A stretch of 64,000 bases of DNA from a virus. Its lineage: Duplodnaviria; Heunggongvirae; Uroviricota; Caudoviricetes. This document shows, piece after piece, positions 34,051 through 56,386 of the stretch. The position numbers were made by a program, and so were the translations under genes. The notes under the pieces are model-generated. The model saw nothing but the letters and a program-made list of their open reading frames with translations. It did not search any database and was not told where the DNA came from. The stretch lies in the IMG/VR virus record IMGVR_UViG_3300042484_002423. One strand, written 5' to 3'. How positions within the stretch are numbered: the stretch's first letter is position 1; the number at the start of each line of letters is the position of its first letter.

Positions 34051-34054
34051 ACCT

Positions 34055-34082: not shown

Positions 34083-34388
34083 ATGGATACTGATGCGTTA
34101 ATGGCTCATTCGCGAGCACGTTTTGATCATGCTGTGGCAAAACGGTTGTTGAAAGAAAAATACCAAGCTCGAATGTTGTTCGCCTATCACGGCGGTATGT
34201 TTAGGGCTGGCCCAGAACTACAAACCACACTGCTAACATGCCCGGATGCAACCGCAGTGATTCTGGACCTGTACGAAAACCCTGTTCAGGTTGACACCAA
34301 AGAGCTGTACGCCCAAAGCCAACAACGCTGGCAAGAGCAAATGAACGCTTGGCTGGTAGAATATGAAGCAAACAATCAAAAGCGATGA
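34083..34388 (+). CDS. Hypothetical protein (101 aa), first gene of the plus-strand modification operon.
   Basis: ATG start. The stop overlaps the next ATG (ATGA). Confidence 0.5.
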   Translation: MDTDALMAHSRARFDHAVAKRLLKEKYQARMLFAYHGGMFRAGPELQTTLLTCPDATAVILDLYENPVQVDTKELYAQSQQRWQEQMNAWLVEYEANNQKR

Positions 34389-35188
34389 CCACAGGCGCAC
34401 TAATTTTTGCGTTCAACAATGAACAAACCGACTATGTTGCTATGGCTGCGTGGAGTGCTCAAAACATTCGTAGGCACCTCAACATTCCAGTTGCAGTGGT
34501 CACAGACTGTGTGGACCATGAAAGAAATAGAGCGTTTGATCGAGTCATTAACGTGGCACCGCAAACAGGAGGCACACGTTGGTTTGAGGATTATGCAGCA
34601 ACTGTGTCTTGGCACAACGCAGGTAGAGTTGATGCATATGCACTAACACCCTGGGATCGTACTCTAGTGTTGGATGCTGACTATGTGGTATGTTCTGATC
34701 GTTTGAAAGCAATTGCAAACGCTGATCAAGACTTCATGTGCCATAGATGGGCTGTTGACATGAGCACCGGGGACGAGCTTGACGGATTGAACTATTTTGG
34801 CCGTGCACGAATGCCCATGTGGTGGGCCACTGTAATGATGTTTAGACGTTCAAACACTGCACAGTATATTTTTGACAGCATGAACATGATCCGGGATAAC
34901 TGGCAACACTATCGTGATCTTTATGGTATTGATCGCAGCACATACCGCAACGATTTTGCACTCAGTATTGCGCTGGGTATTGTAAATGGACATACCACAC
35001 ATGCTGCCAACATCCCTTGGCCCTTGATGAATGTGATGCCTGAAGATACCCTTGAGCAAATTGGACAAGACTGTTTCTCAATAACATATCGTAGCAGTGA
35101 AAACAAGCCACAAACAGTTGGCTGGACCGGCTTTGACTTTCATGCCATGGGCAAGCGTCATTTGGAGAACGCAATTGCGGCCAGTTGA
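34385..35188 (+). CDS. Putative nucleotide-sugar glycosyltransferase (GT-A-like, DxD) paralog 1.
   Basis: An N-terminal Rossmann-like strand (ALIFAFNNEQTDYV...IPVAVVTD) and a LVLDADYVV DxD motif are present. The protein is paralogous to the next ORF. Confidence 0.35.
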   Translation: MTTGALIFAFNNEQTDYVAMAAWSAQNIRRHLNIPVAVVTDCVDHERNRAFDRVINVAPQTGGTRWFEDYAATVSWHNAGRVDAYALTPWDRTLVLDADYVVCSDRLKAIANADQDFMCHRWAVDMSTGDELDGLNYFGRARMPMWWATVMMFRRSNTAQYIFDSMNMIRDNWQHYRDLYGIDRSTYRNDFALSIALGIVNGHTTHAANIPWPLMNVMPEDTLEQIGQDCFSITYRSSENKPQTVGWTGFDFHAMGKRHLENAIAAS

Positions 35189-35939
35189 ATCACAAGGCTA
35201 CATTATTCCTGCATGGAATGTGGGCAGCGTTGACTATGTTGACTGTGCCAGGAGCTTGGCCAAAACTATACTAATGCAGCATCCCAAGGCCCGCATTTGT
35301 TTGCTTACCAACGAACCTTATGCTGCTGAGCCTGCACTGTTTGCTTACACACATGTGGTAGAAGATATCAACACCGACAATCCCTGGGCCAATGACTGGA
35401 TGGTGTTTAGCAAAACTCCGTTTCGTGAAACCATCAAGCTAGAAGCTGACATGGTAATTGCTACCCCAATTGATCACTGGTGGGATCTGTTTAGGCATCG
35501 TGATGTTGTGGTCAGCACTGGATGCAGATCCTGGCAAGGACATGTTAGTACAGCACGTAACTACAGACAATGCTTTGATGCAAATCATTTGCCTGATGTT
35601 TACAATGCTATCACATACTGGCGTTTGAGCCCCACAGCCAAGGAGTTCTTTGATCTTGTGCGTGACATATTTGTGAACTGGATTGAATTCCGCAAGCTGA
35701 TTCGATTCCCTGAAGAAGTGCCCAGCACTGATCTAGTGTATGCCATGGCAGCTGAAATCATGGGACGGGAACGTGTAACACTGCCTTTTGTGACCTATCC
35801 GCAAATTGTGCACATGAAGCGACATCATGCTGGTACCGAAACTGAAGACTGGATGCACGAACTCACCTGGGAAGGTGATCCTTATCGCATCAACACTGTG
35901 GCACAGTGGGGTGCTGTGCACTACAGGGCCAAAAGATGA
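35097..35939 (+). CDS. Putative nucleotide-sugar glycosyltransferase (GT-A-like) paralog 2. The 35097 start is GTG. The true start is probably the in-frame ATG at 35142.
   Basis: It aligns to paralog 1 ([14 protein letters not shown]...ARICLLTNE and LEADMVIAT). The overlap with the upstream gene shrinks if a later start is used. Confidence 0.35.
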
Positions 35940-36274
35940 CTGAACAAGAGTTTTGGGATATATTGCACTCAGCACCTGAACCACATCCAGTGTTTTACAG
36001 GCTGTACCATGACGATGCTGGAATGCCATTATCCTACAGCATGGAAGATTTACCTGGTACATATATAGAACTTGATCAGGAAACATTTGCTCGCGGTGCA
36101 TCCAACATACGAGTGCGTGATGGAAAGATAGTAGAACTCACTTGGAAAACCACTGCTTGCCTAGAGCCCAACGATCATCAAGGAACACCTTGTGATCCTA
36201 GAGATGTAGCGGTCGTAGTATCACCAGATCAACCATGCCAGCGATGGAGCAAACAAACATATGAAACAAATTGA
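35936..36274 (+). CDS. Hypothetical protein (~112 aa). The track ORF at 35906 uses GTG. The ATG at 35936 overlaps the upstream stop (ATGA).
   Basis: An in-frame ATG precedes [10 protein letters not shown]. Confidence 0.4.
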
Positions 36275-37184
36275 CATTGCAGATCTAGACTGCATTTACT
36301 TGAGTTATGACGAACCACAAAAAGAAGAACATTGGGCAAAGATTCGCAATATGGTGCCTTGGGCCAAAAGGGTGGATGGCGTTAAGGGCAGCGATGCTGC
36401 TCACAAAGCGGCGGCACAGGCCAGTGACAGTGATAGATTCATTCTCATTGATGGCGACAATATCCCCAACCCAGCGTTTTTTAATCAAACGCTTGTTCTT
36501 CCTACAGAAGAATATGAGAACGCTGTGTTCCGTTGGCGTGCTAGAAATAAAATCAATGGATTGATGTATGGCAATGGTGGGTTAAGTTCGTGGACCAAGG
36601 AGTTTGTTGCTGCTATGCAAACACACGAAGCCACAGACGGCCGCACCGAAACACAAGTTGAGTTTTGCTTTGATCCGCTTTACTGGGCCATGCATGATTG
36701 TTACAGTACCACATACCCCAATGGATCTGCGTTCCAGGCCTGGCGAGCGGGTTTTAGAGAAGGTGTCAAGATGTGTTTGCAGCGTGGTCGCAAACCCACT
36801 ATTGACGAATTCAAGAATCAAGTGCTGCGCAACATAGACAACTTGACCATATGGCACAACATTGGCACTGATGCAGAGTATGGTGAGTGGGCTATTGCTG
36901 GTGCACGTCAAGGCACCTACATGACCATGCTTACTGGCTGGGATCATACTCTGGTACAGAACTTTGATGCGCTTGAAGATCTATGGCTCACAGTAAAAGA
37001 CAGTGAACCCCGATTGCTCAGTAACCAACTAGGCCCTGAACTGGGCACACAGCTGGACTTGCCCATGGCCATTTTGGAAGCAGAACAATCAGCTTTCTTC
37101 AAGCACCACTATCGCAGCAACTGGCACAATCAAGGCGTCATGGTTAGAGAAATTGATGTAATTCGCAAAACAGAAGGTTGGTAA
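36261..37184 (+). CDS. Hypothetical protein (307 aa) carrying an ILIDGDN DxD-like motif. It may be a transferase.
   Basis: ATG start with tight coupling to neighbours. Confidence 0.45.
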
Positions 37185-38563
37185 TGAGCACTGGTGAACA
37201 AAGCCATTTCATGAACAGTGCTGAACAAATGAAGCAGGACCTGGGTCCTGCTTTATGTCTAGCCAAATGGAAACAAGTTAGCCTGCACCTGCCCACAGGA
37301 CTCAACAACTCGTGCTATCATCCGCCCTTGCATAGAATTCCCATAGAAGAAATTGGTCGCAGCCCAGGTGCACTGCACAATACAGAACACAAAAAACAGC
37401 AAAGAAAAATGATGCTGGCAGGCGAACGCCCTGCAGAATGTCAGTACTGCTGGAACATGGAAGACCTAGGTGAGCTCAGTGATAGACACTATCGTTCTGG
37501 CGAGCCGTGGGCAGCAGCAGACTTTGAGCAGATCAAGAACTCTACAGGACTAGAAGATGATGTCATTCCCAGTTACGTTGAAGTTAACTTTAACAATGCT
37601 TGTAACCTTAAGTGCAGTTATTGCAGTCCCCAGTTTAGCTCTAGCTGGGCCGACGAAGCTAACCGTGATGGCGCTTATGCTACTTCCACACCACATAATG
37701 CTCCTGAACACTTTACAGGGCCTAGACGTGTTATTCCCGCTAGGGAAAACAATCCCTATGTTGAAGCATTTTGGGCGTGGTGGCCCACGCTGTATCCTCA
37801 GCTGAAACATTTCCGCATGACTGGTGGAGAACCACTCATGGATCGAAACACTTACAGAGTGTTTGACTATGTGTTGGCCCTGCCCAAGCCAGACTTGCAC
37901 TTAAACGTAACATCAAACTTCAGTGTAGAAGATGCCTTGTTTGAAAAGTATCTGGACTATGTAAAACGGCTGTGCAACACACAAATTGAGCACTTTATGC
38001 AGTATGTGAGCCTGGACTCGGGCCGCGGATTCCAAGCTGAATACATACGCCACGGCATGGACTCACAACGTGTGGTCACCAATGTAAACCGTTATTTGCA
38101 CGAAGCACCCAGCCGCAACAGTTTGACGTTTATTATAACCATGAACAACTTGTCAGTGTCAGGATTCCGTGAGTACATGGAATGGATCCTGCACCTGCGC
38201 CAAAGCTACAGCAAAACATATCAACGTGTATGGTTTGATACTCCGGTACTGCGACAACCTGCATGGCAAAGCCTGCAAATCCTGCCTGAAAGTTATGCTG
38301 CAAAACTGGAACAGTGTGCTGACTGGATGGACTCACAGGTTACCACAGGCTTGCATGGATTTAAAGATTACGAAGTGCAGCGCCTGCGCAGAGATATTGC
38401 CTGGATGCGTGAAGGGCAGAAACAAGACAACACCGTGGCCAAAGCTGACTTCCATCGTTTCTTTGGTGAACATGATCGTCGAAGAGGCACAGACTTTTTA
38501 CGCACATTTCCTGAAATGAAGTCGTGGTGGGAGGAGTGTGCATATCATGCTAGGCAAGCATAA
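37184..38563 (+). CDS. Radical SAM enzyme, paralog 1 of 5. It has an N-terminal 4-Cys domain, a CNLKCSYC cluster motif and a GGEPLM motif.
   Basis: CX3CX2C with the aromatic residue before the third Cys. A GGEPL SAM-binding motif is present. N-terminal motifs C..KW....LP.G...SCYHPP.H and GERPAEC.YCW are shared with paralog 2. The C-terminal motif F..F...D.RRG.DF is shared. The track start is TTG at 37178. The ATG at 37184 overlaps the upstream TAA. Confidence 0.7.
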   Translation: MSTGEQSHFMNSAEQMKQDLGPALCLAKWKQVSLHLPTGLNNSCYHPPLHRIPIEEIGRSPGALHNTEHKKQQRKMMLAGERPAECQYCWNMEDLGELSDRHYRSGEPWAAADFEQIKNSTGLEDDVIPSYVEVNFNNACNLKCSYCSPQFSSSWADEANRDGAYATSTPHNAPEHFTGPRRVIPARENNPYVEAFWAWWPTLYPQLKHFRMTGGEPLMDRNTYRVFDYVLALPKPDLHLNVTSNFSVEDALFEKYLDYVKRLCNTQIEHFMQYVSLDSGRGFQAEYIRHGMDSQRVVTNVNRYLHEAPSRNSLTFIITMNNLSVSGFREYMEWILHLRQSYSKTYQRVWFDTPVLRQPAWQSLQILPESYAAKLEQCADWMDSQVTTGLHGFKDYEVQRLRRDIAWMREGQKQDNTVAKADFHRFFGEHDRRRGTDFLRTFPEMKSWWEECAYHARQA

Positions 38564-39659
38564 AATCATTGTAGATGAATGGGCTGAAACCTGGGACTTG
38601 TTACAGCCCTATGCTGATGGCAGCTTTTGGCAATGGCCCGACACATTTGATCCTGACGCACGTTATATTGTGGGCAGAGTTATTCTCAAAGATAATTGGC
38701 AAATCATTACTGAGTTGGCCACACAGTATCCGGGCCGCATCATCTTCTCCAATCCGGCAGAAGGGTCAGAAACAATACTACTACAGTTACAGCGTTTGCG
38801 TATTACTGAATTGGTGCAAGACGGGCGTATGGGATTGCTAACTAGTGGCGACCTAGAGCCTGGTATTCGCTACTGCAAGACCGACTGTTACTTTTCAAAC
38901 ATTGTAGAATACACCGAAAACAAAGCAGCACAGTTACAAGCCGCACTGGACTACCGAACACATCGCCCGTATGAGTTTCTTTTTTTAAATGGTCGTTTAC
39001 GCCCGCATCGCAAGTATCTAATGGATCATTTAAGAGTACAAGGCTTGTTGGATGATGCACTGTGGACCAATTTGAGCAGCCAAGTAGAAATGGCATTTAC
39101 CAGCAAGTTACCAACACTCAAAACTGAACCAATAAGATTGCTGCCGCCTGAATATGAAATAGACCGTGCTAAAGAACGCTTAACACCTGATCTTTACACC
39201 GACGGGGGGTTTGTCAAGCACAAGTTATTCAACAACACCTGGGGCGATGCTATTGTTAACCCACGCTGCTACACAGACACTTGGTTTAGCCTAGTAACAG
39301 AAACCATTTATGATTACCCGCACACATTTCGCACAGAAAAGATCTGGAAGCCTATATTAATGGCACACCCTTTTGTGGTTGCTGCTAATCGGGGTTACTT
39401 AAAAGACTTGCGCAACGCAGGATTTCAAACGTTTCATTCATTAATAGACGAAAGCTACGATCAAATTGATTGTCCGCGAGCTAGAATTGAGCGTATAATA
39501 GATACAGTGCATGGCATAAGTTTATCTGGCGCTAGTGATTTCTGGGCGGCCAGCCGCGACATCTGTAAATACAATCAGCAACACTTGGTGGAATACAATC
39601 AGCAGCAACGGGCTGCATTGCCCACTCTACTTGAACAATATCTAAATGAACGATCTTGA
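38547..39659 (+). CDS. GT10-like (alpha-1,3-fucosyltransferase-like) glycosyltransferase, paralog 1 of 4. Track start GTG 38538.
   Basis: The C-terminal motif LVTETIYDYPHTFRTEKIWKPILMAHPFVVAANRG resembles the FucT signature FENS...Y(V/I)TEK(I/F)W...(V/I)P(I/V)(V/Y). The downstream motif GFQTFHSLIDESYD is shared by all four paralogs. Confidence 0.45.
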   Translation: MLGKHKIIVDEWAETWDLLQPYADGSFWQWPDTFDPDARYIVGRVILKDNWQIITELATQYPGRIIFSNPAEGSETILLQLQRLRITELVQDGRMGLLTSGDLEPGIRYCKTDCYFSNIVEYTENKAAQLQAALDYRTHRPYEFLFLNGRLRPHRKYLMDHLRVQGLLDDALWTNLSSQVEMAFTSKLPTLKTEPIRLLPPEYEIDRAKERLTPDLYTDGGFVKHKLFNNTWGDAIVNPRCYTDTWFSLVTETIYDYPHTFRTEKIWKPILMAHPFVVAANRGYLKDLRNAGFQTFHSLIDESYDQIDCPRARIERIIDTVHGISLSGASDFWAASRDICKYNQQHLVEYNQQQRAALPTLLEQYLNERS

Positions 39660-40980
39660 ATTCCGACAACAGGTGCTGGACACCTTGAGTCCCAGTTTTT
39701 GTGCAGCGAAATGGTACAATGCTACCATTTGGTTAGGTAGCGGCATGACCACCAGCTGCCACCACCCGCCAGCCCATTTGGTGAACAAAGATAAAGTCAC
39801 AACCAACCCTAGGCTGCTGCACAATACTCCAGAAAAGAAAGCAGATCGTGAGAAAATGATTGGGGGCGAACGCCCTGCAGGCTGTGAATACTGCTGGAAA
39901 ATAGAAGACATGGGCCGTGACGCTGTGAGCGACCGTGTGTACAAGAGCAAGATCTATCCCATTGCTGCGCTAAAGGAAGCACATGAAACGCCCGTGGACA
40001 CTGATGTTAACCTCCGCACTCTCGAAATTGCTTTTGATCGTACTTGTCAGTTTGCTTGCAGCTACTGCAATCCTGCATTCAGTACAACTTGGGTTAATGA
40101 CATTCGGCGTAATGGCACCTATACAGGGCTGGTATCTGACGGCCGCAACCACTTTACTCACACTCATGATAGTGCTCAACCCTATAGGATTACCGAAAGC
40201 AATCCGTATGTTGAAGCATTTTTTGCTTGGTGGGAGAGTGATCTACATCACACACTACAAGAGCTCCGCATCACAGGAGGAGAGCCCCTCATGTCCGGAC
40301 ACACCTGGAGACTTATTGACTGGTTCAAATCCAATGCTGGCAAGAGCAGTACACGCCTTGCTATCAACAGTAACCTGGGTGCAGAAGTAGATGTAGATAG
40401 ACTGCTGGATTCTATAAAGGGCATGAATGTAGAAATCTATACCAGTATGGAAGCCACAGGAGTCGCTGCTGAATACATTCGTGATGGCTTGGACTACCCA
40501 GCATGGCAAGCCAATGTGCGAAAATTGCTAGACGCTGGAATCACTGTGCATTGCATGTGTACCATTAATGGCCTGTGCTTGACTACTCTCAAAGATCATT
40601 TGTTGTACCTGCATGAGCTAAAGAAGCTATACGGGCGTGATCGAGTGAATTTTACCTTGAATATTCTGCGGTTCCCCAGCTTTCAGAGTCCCTTGGTACT
40701 GCCTGACCATTTGCGAACTCGTTACGCTGCGGAACTGAGTGAGTTATTGTACCAATATCAAAACAATCCTTTTTGGCACCAGCACGAACACAATCATTTG
40801 CAACGCTTGATCGATTATCTTGACGTGGTCAAAACACCGCACTCGGACGCATTTGAACTGCCCAAGTTGCTAAATGACTTCAAACAATTCTACACACAGT
40901 ACGATCAGCGCAGAGGCTTGGATTTTGCAAACGCATTTAAACACAACAAAGACTTATTAAACTGGTATAATTCATTATGA
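39646..40980 (+). CDS. Radical SAM enzyme, paralog 2 of 5 (CQFACSYC, GGEPLM).
   Basis: CX3CX2C, GGEPL, the N-terminal Cys domain and the C-terminal D.RRGLDF motif are all present. ATG start. Confidence 0.7.
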   Translation: MNDLEFRQQVLDTLSPSFCAAKWYNATIWLGSGMTTSCHHPPAHLVNKDKVTTNPRLLHNTPEKKADREKMIGGERPAGCEYCWKIEDMGRDAVSDRVYKSKIYPIAALKEAHETPVDTDVNLRTLEIAFDRTCQFACSYCNPAFSTTWVNDIRRNGTYTGLVSDGRNHFTHTHDSAQPYRITESNPYVEAFFAWWESDLHHTLQELRITGGEPLMSGHTWRLIDWFKSNAGKSSTRLAINSNLGAEVDVDRLLDSIKGMNVEIYTSMEATGVAAEYIRDGLDYPAWQANVRKLLDAGITVHCMCTINGLCLTTLKDHLLYLHELKKLYGRDRVNFTLNILRFPSFQSPLVLPDHLRTRYAAELSELLYQYQNNPFWHQHEHNHLQRLIDYLDVVKTPHSDAFELPKLLNDFKQFYTQYDQRRGLDFANAFKHNKDLLNWYNSL

Positions 40981-49862: not shown

Positions 49863-51039
49863 TGATTTCTCGCACAACACTATTTAAACGTTGTGTCTTG
49901 ACCTTACAAAATAACTGCTGATTGTGCACAATGTCATCGTGTGCCTGTGCAAACAGTTCAAGCAAGCGCGGTTTGGCCGCCGCCACAGCGCCACGCAAGG
50001 CCAGCCAACGTTGAGTATTGTCAACGATAGTATCGTAACTGTTGTCCAGCACTGAATCAAATGTGCGATAGCCCAATTTGCGCAGCAGTTCAAGACTGCC
50101 AGCAGGGCCCACTATAAAGAACATTTGTCCGTGTTTGATAGGCTTGAATGTTTTTTCTGTAAGAAATGTACCACCACTTTGATCAGCATCAAAGTGTGTT
50201 TCCAGTACAATGTTGCAGTAGCTGTTGACATGGTACTTGGGTTCCAGCACACTGTGATTGTTGCGTTGATGGTTGTCAAGCTCATCACTCACATAGGGAG
50301 TGTATGCTAGAAACTTGGCAGTTTCTGTGCGCAACTTACGCACAGCATCCACTTGAATTGGGCTGTCGTTTGGATCCATGTCAGCTGGATCCACAGTTTC
50401 ACAATAGCTCCAGTAGCTGTTGGTCAAGATGTTTTGGCGATGTAGGTCAGCCATGCACATGGCCCGCCAGGGTTTGTGCAATCGCACCAGTGCAGTAAAG
50501 TCACGTTCTCGGGGCAGTTGATGCACGGGCAATGCAGGATTGTTATGATTGCGCTGCCAGTACCATAGTTCAAAATCTGTGAAATAAACAAATCCTGGAA
50601 TATCGCGGGCAGCAGTGTTTGCACTCACAAATACATAACTGTTCAAGGGCAATTGATGCTGTATCAGCAGCGCATCCAGTCGTTGTTTGATACGCAAAGG
50701 ATTGTCACCTTCGTGATAGTAAAACAACACTTTCAATGCAGACTGACGCAGTCGATCAGTCACTGGCCCGGGCAGTAGTGCAAAATAATCTATGTCAAAG
50801 TCAAAGAATCCCAGGCCAATAGGATAGAATGTCTTGGCTGGCAATTGATCTGCAATGCTGAATATATTGATCTTGACAGCATGATGATCGCAGTATTCTT
50901 GCAAACGAACTGGCACAGTATGAGGAAAGTGAGACCCAAACTCGCGCCATGCTGGGGTATAAGGCCTGGCCCCCCACTGTGCCAGTGCAGGATAGATGCG
51001 TCCTTTGACCACACGGTCAGCTACCAGATTCAATTGCAT
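49849..51039 (-). CDS. GT10-like glycosyltransferase, paralog 3 of 4.
   Basis: Motif IVLETHFDADQSGGTFLTEKTFKPIKHGQMFFIVGPAGSLELLRKLGYRTFDSVLDNSYD. ATG start. Confidence 0.45.
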   Translation of the reverse strand: MQLNLVADRVVKGRIYPALAQWGARPYTPAWREFGSHFPHTVPVRLQEYCDHHAVKINIFSIADQLPAKTFYPIGLGFFDFDIDYFALLPGPVTDRLRQSALKVLFYYHEGDNPLRIKQRLDALLIQHQLPLNSYVFVSANTAARDIPGFVYFTDFELWYWQRNHNNPALPVHQLPRERDFTALVRLHKPWRAMCMADLHRQNILTNSYWSYCETVDPADMDPNDSPIQVDAVRKLRTETAKFLAYTPYVSDELDNHQRNNHSVLEPKYHVNSYCNIVLETHFDADQSGGTFLTEKTFKPIKHGQMFFIVGPAGSLELLRKLGYRTFDSVLDNSYDTIVDNTQRWLALRGAVAAAKPRLLELFAQAHDDIVHNQQLFCKVKTQRLNSVVREINDSY

Positions 51040-52177
51040 TCAACATCTCCTGCAGCTCTTGCCACAACACAGTTTCAAATCCGCCCCCATAAAAATGATT
51101 CCAGTTGTGTTCTACCACTTCCTGGGCCATGTCGAACAGGTCCTGCTTGCCCTCTGGGCCCAGTTCATCTAGGCTACGCAGCAGGCTGGCAATGCGCTCA
51201 ATGCGATCTTGGTCATCAGCAAGGTCATAGCTCTCGTCCCAAATACCTTCAAATGTACGGAACCCATAACTGCGCAAATACTCTAAACTGCCCTGAGTTC
51301 CCACAATAATAAACGGCATGCCCATGGCAATGGGTTTGAATGTTTTTTCAGTCAAATGATGTCTGCGTCCTGTGGCCACAGTTTCAGTCACAAGATACAG
51401 CAGGCTTTCAGCACATTGATCAAACAGGCTAAGCCAGCATGAGTGCATGGGATGATCAGTCTCTCCCTCAAAGTTCATGGGCAGTGTTTGTGCTGCAAAC
51501 ACCGACTCTATGTCAGGATACTTTGTGGCCAATGGCTTGACAGCATCCAGTATGCTGATATTCTCTGCAGGACATATTGCTGGACAGCTGATGTGATTGT
51601 CCAGCATGTTGTTACGGAATATATGGTACAGCATTTCCAAACGATGTCGTCGTTCTCCTGCCACAATACGATTGGGTGCAATAAACGTTCGGGTTATGGT
51701 GCGCTGGTCTATTGGCTTGATCAAGAAAGTTCGATCATATCCGCGATACCAATCCAGTGCAGCCCAGCCATGAAAGAAATAGTACAGTGGTATCCAATCA
51801 AATTGCTTGCACACAGCTTCAACGTTCTCACTATTTTGCTCGCTTGTGACAATGTATCCTGGCGATCTTTGACGCAACGATTTAGGTATGTGTCCAATAA
51901 TCTTTGTTCTAGTCTCGTCTGCATAGTGTCCGTTGTGTATATCTTCGTTGAGCTTTTTTACACGATCAAATGTTGGAATGTGTATGTTCAAATGAATTGG
52001 CTCTTGGTCAAAAAAGAATATATAATTGTGTTCACGGGCATCATCTCTGCCGTAATTCATGACACTATCTGGATCACTTCTACCAAAAGGTTCGCAAAAA
52101 AATTCTCTAAATCCGGGGCGATGCTGCTTCATCCAATGCCAAAATGTATTACTATAAATTTCGTCGATTCTAATCAT
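51017..52177 (-). CDS. GT10-like glycosyltransferase, paralog 4 of 4.
   Basis: Motif YLVTETVATGRRHHLTEKTFKPIAMGMPFIIVGTQGSLEYLRSYGFRTFEGIWDESYD. Its ATG at 52177-52175 overlaps the divergent ATG at 52176. Confidence 0.45.
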   Translation of the reverse strand: MIRIDEIYSNTFWHWMKQHRPGFREFFCEPFGRSDPDSVMNYGRDDAREHNYIFFFDQEPIHLNIHIPTFDRVKKLNEDIHNGHYADETRTKIIGHIPKSLRQRSPGYIVTSEQNSENVEAVCKQFDWIPLYYFFHGWAALDWYRGYDRTFLIKPIDQRTITRTFIAPNRIVAGERRHRLEMLYHIFRNNMLDNHISCPAICPAENISILDAVKPLATKYPDIESVFAAQTLPMNFEGETDHPMHSCWLSLFDQCAESLLYLVTETVATGRRHHLTEKTFKPIAMGMPFIIVGTQGSLEYLRSYGFRTFEGIWDESYDLADDQDRIERIASLLRSLDELGPEGKQDLFDMAQEVVEHNWNHFYGGGFETVLWQELQEMLNAIESGS

Positions 52178-54389
52178 GTTTGATGTATTCTATTTGAAAA
52201 GTGAAAAAAAGCCTGGCATCTTTGCGCATGAGATGCCAGCAATGTCGTTGCAGGATGCGCAGTCTCAGAGTCGCACAAGATACTTTTGGTGGATCACATA
52301 CTTATGTGATTATAGCAGCTTTGACTTTGATTATCAACCACTGCCATGGCAAAGTGAGTTTACACATGCATGGCCCAGCCATCACCATGAGTACTCGGGC
52401 ACGTATCTTGTGCCCCGGAGTGGTGATATACAGTATCACTTTCACAGCACAGTAGTGCCCAATTGTTATCGCCTGGGAGAGTTTGACACCTTGACCAATC
52501 ATGTGAACTTTGACTACACCTGGGCACCACATCCACATGATCCACCTTATATCTATGTGTTTGGCAACCAGTGGTGGCCAGCAGAGAAAATGCCCACTGT
52601 GGAGTATCATGTGCCTGGCGCGACAGAACGCAAGTACATGACTGAGCCGCAAGCACAGTTGCCTGAACGTCATTGCAATCGCTGGCATACCGTAGTAGAC
52701 TGCAACTGGGATTACTCTTGGGTACCTGATCCTGGCGATCCACCTTATATCTATGTGTTTGGCAACCAGTGGTGGCCAGCAGAGAAAATGCCCACTGTGG
52801 AGTATCACTCACCAGGCGCAACAGAACGCAAGTATGTTTCATGGCCACGTGCTAAACTACTACAGGATCGCACACACTGGCAAGCACCTGACGACATCGA
52901 TACTGACAGCGTAGACTATTCGTGGGTACCCGATCCTGGAGACCCGCCCTACATCTATCAGTTTGCTACCCAGCACCAAAAGACCGGGGGTCCACAATAC
53001 ACAGTGCCTGGAGCTATTGAAGTAAAATATCTTGCTGAACTACGAGTACGCACAGCAGGTAGAGCCACTGCTGTAGTGGAAATTGATCACTTAGACGGCA
53101 CAGCAGGTGCTATACCTAACACTACACGCAAGGTGCGCTACTTTGACAACTATCGCGATACGCTTGTACGCATTGCCAAGAGCATGACAGATCAACACGA
53201 ATACATCTGGGTGTGCAGCAGCATTTGTGATTACACAGACTTTGATTTCTCATGGCACCCAGAAGATTGGCAAGCCACAATGCTACATGTATTTGCCAGC
53301 GACGGGGAGAAGTTTGGCGACACATTCTTCATGCATGTTCCTACATTTGCAGAGTACGGGGACAAGAAAGCACTGTTGGAATGGTATGATGTAAACTTTG
53401 TAGATGTTAGTGTGCGCCGCAAACCCATGCCTATAATTGAACACAGTTACGACAGTCAAGCAGAAGCAGTTCAAGCATTGCCATTTGATGGCCCGCTGGC
53501 GCTGTATACAAACACAAACTATGTGCGAGACAATCTAGCAACAGTTCCGCTATGGCGTACAGAAACCAAAACCATTGTGCCACTTAGTGCAGGTGCAACA
53601 TCAGTGATAGTACCCCGAACCGCAGTGGCTCATATTCGCACACAGTTGTATGATTATGCCTACATAGACAAGACACGTCGTATGTTAAAAGATAAGCCCC
53701 TGGACATTGTGTTCATTAGCAACGGAGAAAAAAATTCTGATCAAAATTACCAGCGTCTAAAGGACAGTACCTACAATCAAAACAATCTGATACATCGCGT
53801 GGACGGGGTAAACGGTCGTGTGGCAGCATATCATGCAGCAGCCCAAAAGTCTACTACATCTTGGTTCTTTGCTGTGTTTGCCAAGCTCAGTGTTGCCAAC
53901 AATTTTGATTGGACCTGGCAACCAGATCGTATGCAGCAGCCCAAGCATTATATTTTTCATGCTGGTAATCCTGTGAATGGCTTGGTATACGGCCACCAAG
54001 CCATGATTGCCTACAACCAAGAATTAGTGTTGGCCAATGCTGGACAAGGTCTTGACTTTACATTGGACAGTGCACACGAAGTTGTGCCCATTCTCAGCGG
54101 CACAGCCAACTATGCTGAAACACCTTGGATGGCCTGGCGCACCGCATTTAGAGAATGTATTAAACTTAAAGCGAGCTTGCCCGATGTAGAAAATGAATAT
54201 CGATTGAGCAAGTGGCTTGATATCAACAGTGATGAAGCAGACCCACAGTGGAGTCGATTTGGTGCAGAAGATGCTATTGAATACTACAATGCTGTTGCGG
54301 GAGATTTTGTTGAGCTTAAGAAAAGCTACGATTGGGCTTGGTTGGCTAGTTATGCGTTTGTCAAACGTTCTTTAACACCTGATCAGTAA
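52176..54389 (+). CDS. Trp-rich repeat protein (737 aa) with ~66-aa tandem repeats (DY.W.P.P.DPPYIYVFGNQWWPAEKMPTVEYH.PGATERKY) and a possible GT2-like C-terminal region. The start may be M20/M23.
   Basis: Repeats are seen at 52480-53010. The C-terminal IVFISNGEKNSDQNY resembles the GT2 N-terminal strand (IIPTYNE). An ATG is at 52176 and alternative in-frame ATGs at 52233 and 52242. Confidence 0.5.
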   Translation: MFDVFYLKSEKKPGIFAHEMPAMSLQDAQSQSRTRYFWWITYLCDYSSFDFDYQPLPWQSEFTHAWPSHHHEYSGTYLVPRSGDIQYHFHSTVVPNCYRLGEFDTLTNHVNFDYTWAPHPHDPPYIYVFGNQWWPAEKMPTVEYHVPGATERKYMTEPQAQLPERHCNRWHTVVDCNWDYSWVPDPGDPPYIYVFGNQWWPAEKMPTVEYHSPGATERKYVSWPRAKLLQDRTHWQAPDDIDTDSVDYSWVPDPGDPPYIYQFATQHQKTGGPQYTVPGAIEVKYLAELRVRTAGRATAVVEIDHLDGTAGAIPNTTRKVRYFDNYRDTLVRIAKSMTDQHEYIWVCSSICDYTDFDFSWHPEDWQATMLHVFASDGEKFGDTFFMHVPTFAEYGDKKALLEWYDVNFVDVSVRRKPMPIIEHSYDSQAEAVQALPFDGPLALYTNTNYVRDNLATVPLWRTETKTIVPLSAGATSVIVPRTAVAHIRTQLYDYAYIDKTRRMLKDKPLDIVFISNGEKNSDQNYQRLKDSTYNQNNLIHRVDGVNGRVAAYHAAAQKSTTSWFFAVFAKLSVANNFDWTWQPDRMQQPKHYIFHAGNPVNGLVYGHQAMIAYNQELVLANAGQGLDFTLDSAHEVVPILSGTANYAETPWMAWRTAFRECIKLKASLPDVENEYRLSKWLDINSDEADPQWSRFGAEDAIEYYNAVAGDFVELKKSYDWAWLASYAFVKRSLTPDQ
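52480..53010 (+). repeat. In-frame ~198-nt tandem repeat, 2 copies plus a degenerate third. A 71-nt core is identical at 52539-52609 and 52737-52807.
   Basis: Exact nucleotide identity of the cores is seen in the sequence. Confidence 0.85.
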
Positions 54390-55473
54390 CGTATTCCACG
54401 TCTAGGTCAGACAGCTCAGGATATATGGGCAAGCTCAGCACCCGCTGGCAGAGTGCAGAAGCAACACTCAGCATGTTGGGTCCAGGGAATTGCCTTAACA
54501 CAGGATCATCGTGCAAGGGTTGAGCATAATGTATTCGTGTGTCAATACTGGCATTCCATAGTTTTTCTTGCAGCCGATTGCGATGATCAACATCAATCAC
54601 AAACTTGTGAAACGCATGGTGGTGTTCGTTGTGTTCGTTGATCAAGCAGCGTATGCCAGTATTCTCAAAACGCTCGCACATGTAGGCAGCAATCCGGCGA
54701 CGACGACCTTGCCACTGATCAATGTACTGTGTTTTGACCATCATGTGTGCACAATCCAGTTCGCTCATGCGACTGTTGCTGCCGCCGCGCTCGGGCTTGT
54801 AGTTGCCTTTGTTGTGATTACCCCAGGCTCGTGCAAAGTCTGCTAGATCCAAGTTGTCTGTGACCACTGCACCGCCGTTGCCATAACAGGCCAAGTTCTT
54901 CATAGGGTCAAAGCTGATGGCACTTCCGTCACCAATTCGTAAACTGTTGTTGCCCAACCAGTGTTGTGCAGCATCTTCGATCACAGTGATATTATTGTGC
55001 AACCAATGTGTCCAGGCTTTTACTGAGTGAGCATGAGAAATAGCAGCACCGTACAACCCAACCAACACTACGGCCTGATAATCCAGGCCCTGGGGAATTT
55101 TATCAGGATCAAGCAAACCGTTGACATCCACATCAACAAAATGTAAGTCCCAGCCAGCTCGCAAAAATGCATTGGCAGTGGCCACAAACGTCAAGCTGGG
55201 AATCAACACTCGTGGGGGTTTGTTGTTTAGTTCCAATCCACGCCAGTACTCGGCAATAATTTCCAGAGCTTGAGTGCCCGAGTGACAAGTTACTGCATTT
55301 TTGCCCCCGTTCCTGACAGCCAGCCAGTTTTCAAATTTCTGAGTCCAAGGGCCGTTCATGAGCTGACCAGATCGCAGCACCTGATCAGTTGAGTCCAGAA
55401 TCTCCTCACGGAGTTGGTTATACTGTCTTGGGAGACCAGTAAACGGAATTCGCCAACCAGGTATAGTATTCAC
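54361..55473 (-). CDS. PLP-dependent sugar aminotransferase, DegT/DnrJ/EryC1/StrS family. GTG start.
   Basis: The N-terminus IPFTGLPRQYNQLREEILDSTDQVLRSGQLMNGPWTQKFENWLA...AVTCHSGTQALE matches the DegT family consensus. Length 370 aa. Confidence 0.7.
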   Translation of the reverse strand: MNTIPGWRIPFTGLPRQYNQLREEILDSTDQVLRSGQLMNGPWTQKFENWLAVRNGGKNAVTCHSGTQALEIIAEYWRGLELNNKPPRVLIPSLTFVATANAFLRAGWDLHFVDVDVNGLLDPDKIPQGLDYQAVVLVGLYGAAISHAHSVKAWTHWLHNNITVIEDAAQHWLGNNSLRIGDGSAISFDPMKNLACYGNGGAVVTDNLDLADFARAWGNHNKGNYKPERGGSNSRMSELDCAHMMVKTQYIDQWQGRRRRIAAYMCERFENTGIRCLINEHNEHHHAFHKFVIDVDHRNRLQEKLWNASIDTRIHYAQPLHDDPVLRQFPGPNMLSVASALCQRVLSLPIYPELSDLDVEYVTDQVLKNV

Positions 55474-56386
55474 GGAATCCTTGTTCTACGTCAACTTTGG
55501 GATCAAAACCAAGAATGGTTCTGGCCCGATCAATATTCAACGCACCGCGACTGGGAAAGTCTGCATCCTTGTCGCGTACTTCAATGGTGCCCTTGCCCAC
55601 AATTTCCACAATCATTTCTGCGGCTTCGAGTAGTGAAACTGAATGTGATTTGGTAATGTTGTAAGTATTGTTTCGCGCCATGATGCGAGTCGCAGCCGCA
55701 ACAATGCCATCTGCAGCGTCATCCACATACGTAAAGTCCAGCGTTTCCGACGCCCCGTTGACTCGTAGTACGCCGCCACGCATGGCCTGGAGCATAAACT
55801 TTGCAACAACCCTATCTTCCACGTCCAACGGTCCATACACAGCTGACGGACGGATGATAACATACTCCATGCCTGTTCTTCTTGCATAATCTTTAACAAG
55901 CCACTCTCCTGCCAGTTTCATGATGCCGTATTGTCCTTGTGGCGAACACGGATCATCTTCCAACACTTGATCTTCAAAGTCTCCGTACACCATGCTTGAA
56001 CTTATGTATACAAATCGCTCAACACCGTGCTTTTTGGCACTCTCAAGAAGATTGGTCAAGCCCTCCATCATGACACGAGCACCGTAAGCAGGGTTAGCAT
56101 TGACAACTTTTTGTCGGGGGAAGCTGGCCATGTGCACAATTACGTTAGGCTTCTCGTTCCCAACAATTGCATTCATACGATCTGCATCTTCGATATAGTC
56201 GTGATAGATTGGACATGGTGCAATCTTCTTCAGCCGTTCGCCTACAAGATAATCAACTTCTGCTCTTGGAATAATACCATATGTGGTTTGATTGTCTACG
56301 ACAACAACTTCTTCGTTGCGTTGTTGCAGACGCTGTACTACGTTGTGACCGATCAGACCCAGGCCACCAGTAACTAAAATTTTCAT
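55418..56386 (-). CDS. NAD-dependent nucleotide-sugar epimerase/dehydratase (extended SDR).
   Basis: MKILVTGGLGLIGHNVV carries a GxxGxxG Rossmann motif. A YGIMK YxxxK catalytic motif is present. Length 322 aa. Confidence 0.7.
   Translation of the reverse strand: MKILVTGGLGLIGHNVVQRLQQRNEEVVVVDNQTTYGIIPRAEVDYLVGERLKKIAPCPIYHDYIEDADRMNAIVGNEKPNVIVHMASFPRQKVVNANPAYGARVMMEGLTNLLESAKKHGVERFVYISSSMVYGDFEDQVLEDDPCSPQGQYGIMKLAGEWLVKDYARRTGMEYVIIRPSAVYGPLDVEDRVVAKFMLQAMRGGVLRVNGASETLDFTYVDDAADGIVAAATRIMARNNTYNITKSHSVSLLEAAEMIVEIVGKGTIEVRDKDADFPSRGALNIDRARTILGFDPKVDVEQGFREYYTWLANSVYWSPKTV

What the first reader, a model, noticed from the sequence alone, without database searches (positions are those of the whole stretch)
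34083..56386. A ~22-kb glycan / aminoglycoside-like modification island inserted immediately after the tail-fibre genes
Between the last fibre gene and thyX the phage encodes at least 2 GT-A-like (DxD) transferases, 4 GT10-like GTs, a GT2-like repeat protein, 5 rSAMs, a NodU/TobZ-type carbamoyltransferase, an AGAT/StrB1-like amidinotransferase, a DegT/StrS aminotransferase and an SDR nucleotide-sugar dehydratase/epimerase. That is about 20 genes, or roughly a third of the window, devoted to building and decorating sugars. The module starts after a terminator-like hairpin and a sigma70-like promoter rather than a late promoter, so it may be expressed early. Its placement next to the fibres, including the giant FG-GAP propeller fibre, suggests either heavy glycosylation of virion proteins, modification of host surface polysaccharide, or glycosyl-type hypermodification of phage DNA. 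The last option fits the presence of thyX and the absence of a visible hmC/hmU pathway in this window, so it cannot be excluded.
Basis: inference. Interest (0 to 1): 0.8.

Follow-up and report, generated by a model that had tools for sequence, protein, structure and literature searches.

The report
Phage glycan-tailoring gene block beside fibres
An uncultured jumbo phage devotes about 22 kb, just after its tail-fibre genes, to soluble enzymes that build and decorate sugars, including five radical-SAM enzymes of an unstudied family and two large unannotated glycosyltransferase families; a core of this block sits at the same place in several distant jumbo phages, but what it glycosylates is not known.

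Summary
The gene inventory is real. Profile searches confirm five radical SAM enzymes (all NCBIfam NF033640, with an N-terminal twitch domain), a NodU/TobZ-type carbamoyltransferase, a DegT aminotransferase, an extended SDR and an AGAT/StrB1-type amidinotransferase. The claimed glycosyltransferases get no Pfam or NCBIfam hit. Structure prediction and family evidence still support them at fold level: the four "GT10-like" proteins are GT-B, g05 and the C-terminus of the repeat protein are GT-A/GT2-like, and g02/g03 weakly resemble GT8. The hairpin plus sigma70-like promoter in front of the block is conserved, with compensatory stem changes, in 36 related loci. It is not an insertion. Its GC content matches the rest of the window, and it is syntenic in at least 137 metagenomic relatives. 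The core (g01-g05 plus radical SAM) follows the fibre genes in three other jumbo-phage lineages. All products are soluble and acidic to neutral, and no flippase, polymerase or hydroxymethylase is present. Best reading: a separately transcribed cytoplasmic pathway that assembles a heavily tailored amino/guanidino/carbamoyl glycan, most likely on fibre proteins. The target is inferred, not shown. DNA hypermodification is weakened but not excluded. This is a new variant of virus-encoded glycosylation, with uncharacterised enzyme families.

The parts
34031..34076 (+). Boundary element. Hairpin AAAGGCTC-TTTG-GAGCCTTT followed by T-rich tract, then TTTACC-N17-TATAAT, 7 nt before the g01 ATG.
   Evidence: In 36 related loci the stem is kept through compensatory changes, and the -35-like TTTAC and the -10 box are kept.
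34083..34388 (+). g01, 101 aa, unknown. First gene of the conserved core.
   Evidence: No family hit. Homologues sit at the same position in RsoM2USA (1.9e-09) and L166 (6.7e-05).
34385..35188 (+). g02, 267 aa, GT-A/GT8-like transferase (DxD = LDADYV; C-terminal H..K).
   Evidence: No Pfam hit. The g02/g03 profile hits only glycogenin in PDB, E 0.02-0.45, through the DxD. Orthologues in RsoM2USA, L166 and L167.
35097..35939 (+). g03, about 240-280 aa (start uncertain), paralogue of g02 (LEADMV).
   Evidence: phrog_1903 4e-08. Aligns with g02 with invariant D99, H253 and K257. Orthologues in RsoM2USA, L166 and L167.
35906..36274 (+). g04, 122 aa, acidic, unknown.
   Evidence: No hit. Fast-evolving, median 54% identity in the clade. 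A small ORF occupies this position in the other lineages.
36261..37184 (+). g05, 307 aa, GT-A-fold (GT2-like) transferase, DxD = IDGDN.
37178..38563 (+). rSAM1, 461 aa, radical SAM with N-terminal twitch domain.
   Evidence: NF033640 3.7e-93, 313 bits against cut-off 170. Pfam Radical_SAM 7e-09. CX3CX2C and four N-terminal Cys invariant.
38538..39659 (+). TEK1, 373 aa, GT-B glycosyltransferase of an unannotated family ('TEK' motif).
   Evidence: Paralogue of TEK4. The family profile finds 12,956 50%-identity clusters. No Pfam, NCBIfam or PDB sequence hit.
39646..40980 (+). rSAM2, 444 aa, N-terminal-twitch radical SAM.
   Evidence: NF033640 2.6e-83.
40977..42641 (+). rSAM3, 554 aa, N-terminal-twitch radical SAM with a 150-aa N-terminal extension.
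   Evidence: NF033640 9.7e-122. SPASM 3.6e-10 at residues 159-224, ahead of the radical SAM core at 269-399.
42638..43849 (+). rSAM4, 403 aa, N-terminal-twitch radical SAM.
   Evidence: NF033640 6.4e-104. SPASM at residues 9-78 and Radical_SAM at 119-276.
43842..44855 (+). TEK2, 337 aa, GT-B family member. A variable slot in the clade.
   Evidence: Present in only some relatives, at a median 33% identity.
44842..46140 (+). rSAM5, 432 aa (or 361 aa from a later ATG), N-terminal-twitch radical SAM.
   Evidence: NF033640 1.2e-84.
46133..47170 (+). g13, 345 aa, unknown, conserved in the clade.
   Evidence: No Pfam, PHROG, NCBIfam or PDB hit, even with an ortholog profile. Median 70% identity.
47341..48828 (+). 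Carbamoyltransferase, NodU/CmcH/TobZ type, 495 aa.
   Evidence: Carbam_trans_C 1.3e-47 and Carbam_trans_N 2.3e-34. NodU model 2.4e-39, far below the equivalog cut-off.
48825..49880 (-). Amidinotransferase, AGAT/StrB1 type, about 345-351 aa.
   Evidence: phmmer against PDB: AGAT 1.7e-15, StrB1 1.9e-12, HsvA, SxtG. Cys407 and His303 equivalents align. It is the most conserved island protein, median 87% identity.
49849..51039 (-). TEK3, 396 aa, GT-B family member.
51017..52177 (-). TEK4, 386 aa, GT-B glycosyltransferase (the modelled member).
52176..54389 (+). g18, 737 aa: N-terminal W-x-P...Y-I-F repeats plus a C-terminal g05-like GT-A domain that lacks the DxD.
   Evidence: The C-terminus aligns with the g05 family, with 'VFAKL' in place of 'IDGDN'. 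The repeats match a sub-segment of that domain. A 131-nt direct repeat lies at 52506-52636 and 52704-52834. No Pfam hit.
54361..55473 (-). DegT/DnrJ/EryC1/StrS sugar aminotransferase (370 aa, or 332 aa from a later ATG).
   Evidence: PF01041 3.4e-64. The nearest NCBIfam models are PseC, WecE and ArnB, which are 4-aminotransferases. All score below their cut-offs.
55418..56386 (-). Extended SDR, a nucleotide-sugar dehydratase/epimerase, 322 aa.
   Evidence: Epimerase 8.6e-47 and GDP_Man_Dehyd 3e-36. dTDP-glucose 4,6-dehydratase model 4.5e-37 and GalE 2.3e-30, both below cut-off. Ortholog at 6e-117 in L166.
33065..34027 (+). u3, the last fibre-like protein before the block. It is a candidate acceptor (inference only).
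   Evidence: 30% Ser+Thr, 21% Thr. The C-terminal ...SWGTPTVAATTT is conserved in relatives. The protein upstream of the module is 20-25% Ser+Thr in the other lineages.

Best explanation
The block is a conserved, separately transcribed, entirely soluble pathway. It makes unusual activated sugars and assembles them into a multi-residue, heavily tailored glycan inside the infected cell.

Shown:
- Up to eight transferase-like proteins: g02 and g03 (GT8-like), g05 (GT-A/GT2-like), four members of a new GT-B family, and g18, which has a DxD-less g05-like domain.
- A nucleotide-sugar SDR plus a DegT aminotransferase. This is the classic pair that yields NDP-amino-deoxyhexoses.
- An arginine-dependent amidinotransferase, a carbamoyl-phosphate-dependent carbamoyltransferase, and five divergent radical SAM enzymes carrying an N-terminal auxiliary-cluster (twitch) domain.

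Inferred:
- The radical SAM enzymes abstract hydrogen from sugar carbons, giving BtrN-like dehydrogenation or epimerisation with the twitch cluster as electron sink. This would create keto or epimeric positions.
- The keto positions are then aminated by DegT.
- The amines and hydroxyls are capped as guanidino and carbamoyl groups.
- The transferases string the products together.

Inferred, with lower confidence:
- The acceptor is a virion protein. The most likely candidates are the Thr/Ser-rich fibre proteins encoded immediately upstream.
- The block would be switched on from a host-type promoter before late genes, so the sugar pools and enzymes are ready when fibres are made.
For: Enzyme identities: profiles; folds; family links to GT2 and GT8.

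Catalytic motifs are intact:
- CX3CX2C, GGEP and four N-terminal Cys are invariant in all five rSAMs.
- R179, E265, E277, K278 and K281 are invariant across 84 diverse TEK members.
- The DxD is nearly invariant in the g05 family.

No product has a transmembrane segment, and all have pI 4.7-7.0.

Separate transcription unit:
- The conserved terminator hairpin and the TTTAC-N17-TATAAT promoter are found in 36 loci.
- Structural genes upstream carry TAAATA late-type motifs instead.

Link to the fibres:
- The order fibre genes -> g01-g02-g03-small ORF-g05 -> N-twitch rSAM(s) recurs in this clade, in Ralstonia phage RsoM2USA, in a 351-kb contig L166 and in a 303-kb contig L167. In L167 it follows a 5186-aa giant protein and three u2-like fibre genes.
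- The protein just upstream is 20-30% Ser+Thr in all four lineages.

Carbohydrate context for the rSAM family in bacteria:
- Neighbours include carbamoyltransferase (14-16 of 78 loci), GT2, a GT4-UbiA fusion, sulfotransferase with CysD/CysN, an ABC ATPase, SDR and g05-like proteins.
- One TEK relative is fused to a UDP-glucose/GDP-mannose dehydrogenase domain.
Against: - No acceptor is identified, and nothing in the sequence shows that a protein is glycosylated.
- The terminator and promoter between the fibre gene and g01 uncouple the block from late fibre expression.
- Tail fibres are Ser/Thr-rich in general, so that observation is weak.
- The radical SAM family has no characterised member. 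Its nearest solved sequences include a peptide-modifying enzyme (TigE, 8vpo) as well as viperin, BlsE and MoaA, so a sugar substrate is an inference.
- The SDR and DegT score below every NCBIfam equivalog cut-off, so the sugar cannot be named.
- g01, g04 and g13 are unexplained.
Confidence: 0.45

Rival explanations
1. Host envelope remodelling. The enzymes alter host surface polysaccharide or lipid-linked glycan during infection, for example to block superinfection or stop progeny readsorbing to debris.
For: A host-type promoter, suggesting early expression, fits this role. In bacteria the N-twitch rSAMs sit in loci with an ABC transporter ATPase, a GT4-UbiA fusion, a sulfotransferase and a carbamoyltransferase. 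These look like surface-glycan or glycolipid loci.
Against: The block encodes no membrane protein, initiating phosphoglycosyltransferase, flippase, polymerase or transporter. Every product is soluble. The conserved position inside the virion structural region in four lineages is not explained.
Confidence: 0.15
2. A soluble small molecule. The block makes an aminoglycoside-like pseudo-oligosaccharide, or another guanidino/carbamoyl sugar metabolite, that acts on the host or on competitors.
For: The enzyme set mirrors aminoglycoside logic from established pathway knowledge. It includes a twitch-type rSAM (like BtrN), a DegT/StrS aminotransferase, a StrB1-type amidinotransferase (1.9e-12 to StrB1), a TobZ-type carbamoyltransferase and several soluble GTs. 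No acceptor protein or carrier is evident.
Against: There is no cyclitol synthase, exporter or self-resistance gene within 34083-56386. The number of transferases (up to eight) and the fixed position after the fibre genes in four lineages fit a polymer on a structure better.
Confidence: 0.12
3. DNA hypermodification. The transferases glycosylate a modified base in phage DNA, and the other enzymes tailor the attached sugar.
Confidence: 0.08
4. Radical protein maturation. The rSAM enzymes cross-link or otherwise modify fibre or other virion proteins (anSME/RiPP-like chemistry), and the transferases act independently of them.
For: SPASM/twitch rSAMs are mostly peptide or protein modifiers. The closest solved sequence is TigE, a RiPP cyclopropyl synthase, at 7e-07. 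The genes sit next to the fibre genes.
Against: No RiPP recognition element or precursor-like small gene with conserved core was found. The rSAMs interleave with GTs here. In bacteria they sit with carbohydrate-tailoring genes. Viperin, BlsE and MoaA, which act on nucleotide or sugar substrates, match almost as well.
Confidence: 0.08

Closest known systems
Virus-encoded autonomous glycosylation machinery of giant viruses (chlorovirus PBCV-1 capsid glycans made by A064R, A075L and others; Mimivirus fibril glycans with a 4,6-dehydratase + DegT-type aminotransferase route to UDP-viosamine). The pathway details are from established knowledge.
   Same: A virus carries its own soluble GT-A and GT-B transferases plus an SDR/aminotransferase pair and works in the cytoplasm without the host's membrane-bound pathway. 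PBCV-1 A64R, PBCV-1 A075L and Mimivirus R699 appear among the structural matches.
   Different: This is a bacteriophage. It has five radical SAM enzymes, an amidinotransferase and a carbamoyltransferase, none of which I know from the giant-virus glycosylation systems (established knowledge, not tested here). Its transferase families are unannotated. No glycan or acceptor has been demonstrated.
Mycobacteriophage virion glycosylation (Freeman et al. 2023, cited in PMC12619734).
   Same: Phage-encoded glycosyltransferases decorate virion proteins.
   Different: Those phages carry one to a few ordinary GTs. This block has about 20 genes, with radical and guanidino/carbamoyl tailoring. The evidence here is positional only.
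Aminoglycoside/aminocyclitol biosynthesis enzymes (BtrN, StrS/BtrS, StrB1, TobZ).
   Same: The same four enzyme types occur together: a twitch-domain radical SAM, a DegT-family aminotransferase, an amidinotransferase (StrB1 1.9e-12) and a carbamoyltransferase.
   Different: There is no cyclitol-forming enzyme, exporter or resistance gene. The rSAMs have the twitch domain at the N-terminus and belong to NF033640, not to the BtrN family. There are many more transferases here.
T4 alpha- and beta-glucosyltransferases and newer phage DNA-glycan pathways (bioRxiv 10.1101/2023.12.21.572611).
   Different: No hmC/hmU-forming enzyme is nearby. The proteins are acidic rather than having a basic DNA groove. 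There is no sequence similarity.
Bacterial N_Twi_rSAM (NF033640) loci, mostly in Bdellovibrionota MAGs.
   Same: The same rSAM family occurs in multi-paralogue arrays, averaging 2.7 per locus and reaching at least 14 within 38 kb. The arrays often sit with a carbamoyltransferase, an SDR and g05-like GT-A proteins.
   Different: The bacterial loci lack the TEK GT-B family, which appears in 3 of 80 loci, all phage-like contigs. They carry PhyH/WelO5 dioxygenases, sulfotransferase and ABC transporter parts that the phage lacks. Function is unknown there too.

Membership tests
NF033640 N_Twi_rSAM (twitch domain-containing radical SAM) | Score above the curated NCBIfam cut-off (170 bits) over the full model. 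| tested here: met
   All five proteins score 280-407 bits and cover model positions 1-3 to 386-397 of 398.
NF033640 N_Twi_rSAM (twitch domain-containing radical SAM) | CX3CX2C radical SAM cluster motif, plus a Cys-rich SPASM/twitch segment N-terminal to it. | tested here: met
   C142/C146/C149 and C27/C46/C88/C91 (rSAM1 numbering) are invariant in the five paralogues. The Pfam SPASM hit lies upstream of the Radical_SAM hit.
CAZy GT10 (alpha1,3/4-fucosyltransferases), for TEK1-4 | Match to the family profile (Pfam Glyco_transf_10). | tested here: not met
   No Pfam hit at E<=10 for the four proteins, nor at E<=0.01 for any of 84 diverse family members. No PDB sequence hit with the 84-sequence profile.
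CAZy GT10 (alpha1,3/4-fucosyltransferases), for TEK1-4 | GT-B fold with closest structural neighbours in GT10. | tested here: inconclusive
CAZy GT10 (alpha1,3/4-fucosyltransferases), for TEK1-4 | C-terminal nucleotide-sugar motif (…E-N-S…Y-x-T-E-K…) with Arg/Glu/Lys ligands of GDP-fucose. | tested here: inconclusive
   An invariant E265-T266…E277-K278…K281 and R179 exist in the family. Equivalence to the GT10 motif rests on memory of the H. pylori FucT structure and was not aligned here.
CAZy GT8 (retaining GT-A; glycogenin, LgtC), for g02/g03 | Match to a family profile or to solved members. | tested here: inconclusive
   No Pfam hit. The 16-sequence profile hits 19 PDB sequences, all glycogenin, but only at E 0.022-0.45.
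CAZy GT8 (retaining GT-A; glycogenin, LgtC), for g02/g03 | DxD after beta4, and a C-terminal His…Lys metal/phosphate motif. | tested here: met
   The D/E-A/S-D is aligned to glycogenin's DAD. D99, H253 and K257 are invariant in 16 sequences.
GT2-like GT-A transferases, for g05 and the C-terminus of g18 | GT-A fold. | tested here: met
GT2-like GT-A transferases, for g05 and the C-terminus of g18 | Match to Pfam GT2 models. | tested here: inconclusive
   g05 itself has none. 7 of the 120 listed relatives carry precomputed PF00535 or PF13641 hits, and one is marked 'faint' in its contig record.
GT2-like GT-A transferases, for g05 and the C-terminus of g18 | DxD metal-binding motif. | tested here: met
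   Met for g05, with D64/D66 in at least 90% of the family. Not met for the g18 C-terminal domain, which has VFAKL, so that domain may be non-catalytic.
NodU/CmcH/TobZ carbamoyltransferases | Both Pfam domains above gathering score. | tested here: met
   Carbam_trans_N 119.8 bits (GA 24) and Carbam_trans_C 161.9 bits (GA 27). It is not a NodU equivalog, at 136 against 1000 bits.
Amidinotransferases (AGAT/StrB1; guanidino-group-modifying superfamily) | Sequence homology to solved members, and the Cys-His-Asp catalytic triad. | tested here: met
   AGAT 1.7e-15, StrB1 1.9e-12, HsvA 4.5e-12 and SxtG 1.4e-10. The Cys407 and His303 equivalents are aligned. The Asp equivalent lies just outside the aligned blocks and was not resolved. 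There is no Pfam hit.
DegT/DnrJ/EryC1/StrS aminotransferases | Pfam PF01041 above gathering score over the full length. | tested here: met
   217.8 bits (GA 19.8), residues 20-366. No NCBIfam equivalog cut-off is reached, so the substrate is undefined.
Extended SDR nucleotide-sugar epimerase/dehydratase | Pfam Epimerase/GDP_Man_Dehyd above gathering score. | tested here: met
   160 and 126 bits. Whether it is a dehydratase or an epimerase is not resolved, because both models score below cut-off.
Phage DNA glycosylation systems (hmC/hmU + GT) | A base-hydroxymethylating or oxidising enzyme (ThyA-like hydroxymethylase, or a 5mYOX/TET) associated with the GT. | tested here: not met
   None in the 64-kb window. 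The neighbour is ThyX (Thy1, 3.7e-42). In L166 the neighbours are ThyA + DHFR. The rest of the roughly 360-kb genome was not available.
Und-P-dependent surface polysaccharide loci (Wzx/Wzy or ABC type) | An initiating phosphoglycosyltransferase, flippase/polymerase or ABC transporter; membrane proteins. | tested here: not met
   No such Pfam hit. The maximum 19-residue hydropathy is below 1.5 for every product.

The most novel reading that the evidence does not exclude
A widespread but undescribed viral glycosylation system. A fibre-adjacent core (g01-g05 plus N-terminal-twitch radical SAM enzymes) is shared by several jumbo-phage lineages. In this clade it is expanded with a new GT-B family, an amidinotransferase and a carbamoyltransferase. 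The expanded system uses radical chemistry on sugars to build a guanidino/carbamoyl amino-glycan on virion fibres. This would give the first function for the NF033640 radical SAM family and for two very large unannotated glycosyltransferase families.
Probability: 0.3. Interest if true: 0.8.

Novelty: new variant of a known kind. Interest (0 to 1): 0.65.

Why it matters
Virus-encoded glycosylation is well documented for giant viruses and a few mycobacteriophages, but not for jumbo phages, and not with radical SAM tailoring.

- The block is common in metagenomes. There are more than 4000 and more than 8000 close homologues for two of its proteins, and at least 137 syntenic viral contigs.
- It contains three enzyme families with no characterised member. 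These are the NF033640 radical SAMs, a GT-B family with about 13,000 clusters at 50% identity and no Pfam model, and a GT-A family found in phages and Bdellovibrionota.
- A cultured phage, Ralstonia phage RsoM2USA, carries the minimal core. That makes the question experimentally tractable.

If the product decorates fibres, it bears on host recognition, on resistance to proteases or grazers, and on phage engineering. If it decorates DNA or is a free aminoglycoside-like compound, it would be a new anti-defence or warfare chemistry.

Tried and rejected
- Near-identity DNA search of the block against 50,697 phage records found no match.
- Pfam at E<=10, PHROGs and NCBIfam gave nothing useful for g01-g05, TEK1-4, g13 and g18. 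The only hits were two function-unknown PHROGs.
- PDB sequence searches with profiles of the TEK family (4 and 84 sequences), the g05 family and g13 gave no meaningful hit.
- A Pfam scan of 84 diverse TEK members found no glycosyltransferase family.
- A tblastn of TEK4 against phage genomes found no match. A tblastn of g05 found only RsoM2USA.
- The first genome scan with the 5-sequence rSAM alignment failed for lack of conserved stretches.
The afdb50 fold library was unavailable.
- Literature searches for the rSAM family name and for jumbo phage + radical SAM + glycosyltransferase returned nothing relevant. The RsoM2USA paper has no data on these genes. The 'moraphage' paper concerns another lineage.
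- The palindrome-avoidance test for unmodified DNA showed only mild depletion of ACGT, GCGC, GTAC and CTGCAG. It is uninformative.
- Rfam and tRNA scans of the window found nothing.
- The idea of a horizontally inserted island was rejected on composition and synteny.
- The T4 late consensus TATAAATA occurs once, which is no more than chance. The shorter TAAATA motif upstream of structural genes was seen by eye only.

Full report
CONTEXT

The window comes from an uncultured jumbo myovirus.
- Its baseplate wedge protein (12248-15685) is about 34% identical to those of Agrobacterium phage Atu_ph07, Sinorhizobium phage Phosso and the PBECO4/Rak2-type phages.
- It encodes a gp55-like late sigma factor and baseplate proteins. 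It also has a 4916-aa protein with an FG-GAP repeat.
- The 23 kb in question has no near-identical DNA in 50,697 phage records.
- Relatives abound in metagenomes. One island protein has 4082 homologues and another more than 8000, mostly at 75-90% identity, on contigs up to about 360 kb.

THE OBSERVATION

Twenty co-linear ORFs fill 34083-56386. They form four strand blocks: 34083-48828 (+), 48825-52177 (-), 52176-54389 (+), and 54361-56386 (-). The last block continues into the minus-strand thyX operon.

- Five radical SAM proteins all belong to NCBIfam NF033640, 'twitch domain-containing radical SAM protein'. They score 280-407 bits against a cut-off of 170, and the SPASM/twitch segment lies unusually upstream of the radical SAM core.
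- A carbamoyltransferase has both Pfam domains.
- There is a DegT-family aminotransferase and an extended SDR.
- The amidinotransferase has no Pfam hit. It matches human AGAT (1.7e-15), StrB1 (1.9e-12), HsvA and SxtG in the PDB, with the catalytic Cys and His aligned.

THE TRANSFERASES

None of the claimed glycosyltransferases matches Pfam, NCBIfam or, usefully, PHROGs, even at E<=10. Deeper tests rescue them at fold level.

(i) The four 'GT10-like' paralogues
- They are 21-28% identical to one another.
- They belong to a very large family. A profile finds 12,956 clusters at 50% identity.
- Eighty-four diverse members still give no Pfam or PDB sequence hit.
- An AlphaFold model built on that alignment is confident, with pLDDT 85 and pTM 0.88. 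It is a GT-B fold.
- So 'GT-B glycosyltransferase' is supported. 'GT10' is a resemblance, not membership.
- In the viral structure library the family occurs in uncultured phages. One member is fused to a UDP-glucose/GDP-mannose dehydrogenase domain.

(ii) g05
- Its model (pLDDT 86) is a GT-A fold, matching B4GALNT1, chondroitin polymerase, STIV A197, SunS, Mimivirus R699 and PBCV-1 A64R.
- Its DxD is nearly invariant.
- A few two-domain relatives carry precomputed Pfam GT2 hits.

(iii) The 737-aa 'repeat protein'
- It ends in a g05-like domain that has lost the DxD.
- It begins with repeats derived from a sub-segment of that domain.

(iv) g02 and g03
- They are paralogues.
- Their joint profile hits only glycogenin (GT8) in the PDB, weakly (E 0.02-0.45), and through the DxD. 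A C-terminal His…Lys pair is invariant.

g01, g04 and g13 remain unknown.

THE BOUNDARY

Between the last fibre-like gene (stop at 34027) and g01 lies a perfect 8-bp hairpin with a T-rich tail, followed by TTTACC-17-TATAAT. As a bare consensus match this means little, because the region has fewer such matches than shuffles do. However, in 36 related loci three things are retained: the stem, through compensatory changes, the TTTAC and the -10 box.

Structural genes upstream instead carry TAAATA-type motifs 15-25 nt before their start codons. The minus-strand early genes carry TGcTATAAT(A). The block is therefore its own transcription unit with a host-type promoter. Early expression is plausible but inferred.

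NOT AN INSERTION

- GC content is uniform across the window.
- In 46 full-length viral loci the order u3-g01…g10-g12-g13-g14-(g15)-g16-g17-g18-g19 is kept. There are variable slots: TEK2, the amidinotransferase g15 (missing from several of the 46 layouts), and extra rSAM or SDR copies.
- Median identities run from 87% (amidinotransferase) through 71-76% (rSAMs, g05) to 33% (TEK2).
- The core recurs directly after the fibre genes in three other lineages. The core is g01-g02-g03-small ORF-g05, followed by one or more N-twitch rSAMs.
  - Ralstonia phage RsoM2USA.
  - A 351-kb contig, L166.
  - A 303-kb contig, L167. Here the core follows a 5186-aa giant protein, a u1 homologue and three u2-like fibre genes.
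- Other Rak2-type phages lack it.

THE RADICAL SAM FAMILY ELSEWHERE

- A scan of one genome per species finds NF033640 mostly in Bdellovibrionota MAGs. It also occurs in some Bacteroidota and in two cultured bacteria.
- It forms multi-paralogue arrays, averaging 2.7 per locus. One Bdellovibrionia contig has at least 14 within 38 kb.
- Recurrent neighbours are carbamoyltransferases, further rSAMs, g05-like GT-A proteins, PhyH and WelO5-type dioxygenases, an ABC ATPase, GT2, SDR, a GT4-UbiA fusion and a sulfotransferase with CysD/CysN. These are carbohydrate or glycolipid-decorating contexts.
- I found no paper on the family.
- The nearest solved sequences are TigE (a peptide cyclopropyl synthase), viperin, BlsE and MoaA. 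The substrate class is therefore not settled by homology.

MECHANISM

Shown: a set of soluble enzymes with intact catalytic motifs. None has a membrane segment, and all are acidic to neutral.

From established pathway knowledge:
- An SDR plus a DegT enzyme yield NDP-amino-deoxyhexoses.
- AGAT/StrB1 enzymes convert an amine to a guanidine using arginine.
- NodU/TobZ enzymes carbamoylate sugar hydroxyls.
- Twitch/SPASM auxiliary clusters accompany radical dehydrogenations such as BtrN and anSME.

Inferred:
- The five rSAMs activate sugar C-H bonds to create keto or epimeric centres.
- DegT, the amidinotransferase and the carbamoyltransferase cap these positions.
- Up to eight transferases assemble a multi-residue glycan.

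THE ACCEPTOR

- The absence of any lipid-carrier machinery argues against a surface-polysaccharide pathway of its own.
- Three things argue against DNA: the acidic transferases, the lack of any hydroxymethylase or TET enzyme in the window, and the canonical thymidylate genes next door. Those are ThyX here and ThyA + DHFR in L166. The fold match to the T4 enzymes and the unseen 300 kb of genome keep the DNA option alive. DNA-glycosylating GTs described recently sit beside 5mYOX or ThyA-like genes and have basic grooves.
- The fixed position after the fibre genes in four lineages favours a virion protein. So do the Thr/Ser-rich proteins just upstream, at 30% in u3 and 20-25% elsewhere. This is positional inference only.
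- A free aminoglycoside-like product is also compatible with the enzyme set.

COMPARISON AND VERDICT

The closest analogues are the self-contained glycosylation systems of chloroviruses and mimiviruses, and the simpler virion glycosylation of mycobacteriophages. The enzyme logic resembles aminoglycoside tailoring. It differs from all of these in three ways:
- the five N-terminal-twitch radical SAM enzymes;
- the combined guanidino and carbamoyl tailoring;
- the use of two large, unannotated transferase families.

I rate it a new variant of a known kind, with interest 0.65. The 'island' framing is wrong. The choice of target remains open, with virion fibres the leading candidate at about 0.45.

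Noticed in passing
window 15682-30432 (+): A single 4916-aa ORF with only one Pfam hit (FG-GAP_2, residues 2698-2736). A 5186-aa counterpart precedes the same fibre/glycan region in contig L167.
   Followed up: partly
window upstream of 1697, 11824, 12248, 31233, 33065 (+); upstream of 56975, 62338, 62664 (-): Structural genes carry a TAAATA-type motif 15-25 nt before the ATG, which fits the gp55-like sigma factor at 683-1582. Minus-strand genes carry TGcTATAAT(A). The exact T4 consensus TATAAATA occurs once (31200), no more than chance.
   Followed up: partly
window 33065-34027 (+): The last fibre-like protein is 30% Ser+Thr (21% Thr) and ends in ...SWGTPTVAATTT, a tail conserved in relatives. 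It may be a glycan acceptor, or simply typical fibre composition.
   Followed up: partly
window 38538-39659, 43842-44855, 49849-51039, 51017-52177: These four proteins belong to a GT-B family with about 12,956 clusters at 50% identity (9411 at E<=1e-10). It has no Pfam, NCBIfam or PDB sequence relative. Many members are 750-850-aa tandem duplications.
   Followed up: partly
L103 + L112 (JAUICP010000002.1, 746742-784874); also L121/L134: Bdellovibrionia MAG chromosomes carry arrays of at least 14 N-terminal-twitch radical SAM paralogues within about 38 kb. An unannotated 300-aa protein family ('cl4') is interleaved with them.
   Followed up: partly
L086, L087 (Haliscomenobacter MAG EUL_031); L088 (Legionellales SP228); L090 (Pacearchaeota ARS103); L104 (Neisseriaceae); L110 (Rickettsiales MED657): Contigs filed under bacterial or archaeal MAGs carry phage-specific island genes. 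L086 and L087 carry the TEK proteins and L110 one TEK hit, while L088, L090 and L104 carry the g05/g18-like proteins. They are probably jumbo-phage contigs binned by mistake. The Haliscomenobacter case could instead hint at the host, but the conserved TTGACA/TATAAT-type promoters look proteobacterial rather than Bacteroidota-like.
   Followed up: no
window 52506-52636 and 52704-52834: A 131-nt direct repeat (86% identical) inside g18 encodes two nearly identical units (…DPPYIYVFGNQWWPAEKMPTVEYH…). It also produces duplicated spurious ORFs on the opposite strand.
   Followed up: partly
L166 (ERZ19026863 scaffold_9, 351 kb) 15664-21635 and 1665-3076: A related jumbo phage carries three fatty-acid desaturase genes and a ketoacyl synthase next to the module. 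It also has a weak QueC-like gene, and DHFR + ThyA where this window has thyX.
   Followed up: no
L001 (Vibrio phage K566) 14998-21734: Four to five N-twitch radical SAM genes lie in a row among hypothetical genes. A PagP-like gene and nicotinamide phosphoribosyltransferase are nearby. None of the other island families is detectable.
   Followed up: partly
whole window: GATC is over-represented (339 observed against 270 expected, z about 4.2). ACGT, GCGC, GTAC and CTGCAG are mildly depleted.
   Followed up: no
window 59941-60738 and 61028-62338 (-): A Band 7/SPFH protein and a DUF2201 metallopeptidase-VWA protein (PHROG label 'HNH endonuclease') lie downstream of thyX. The arrangement is conserved in close relatives (L003, L004).
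   Followed up: no
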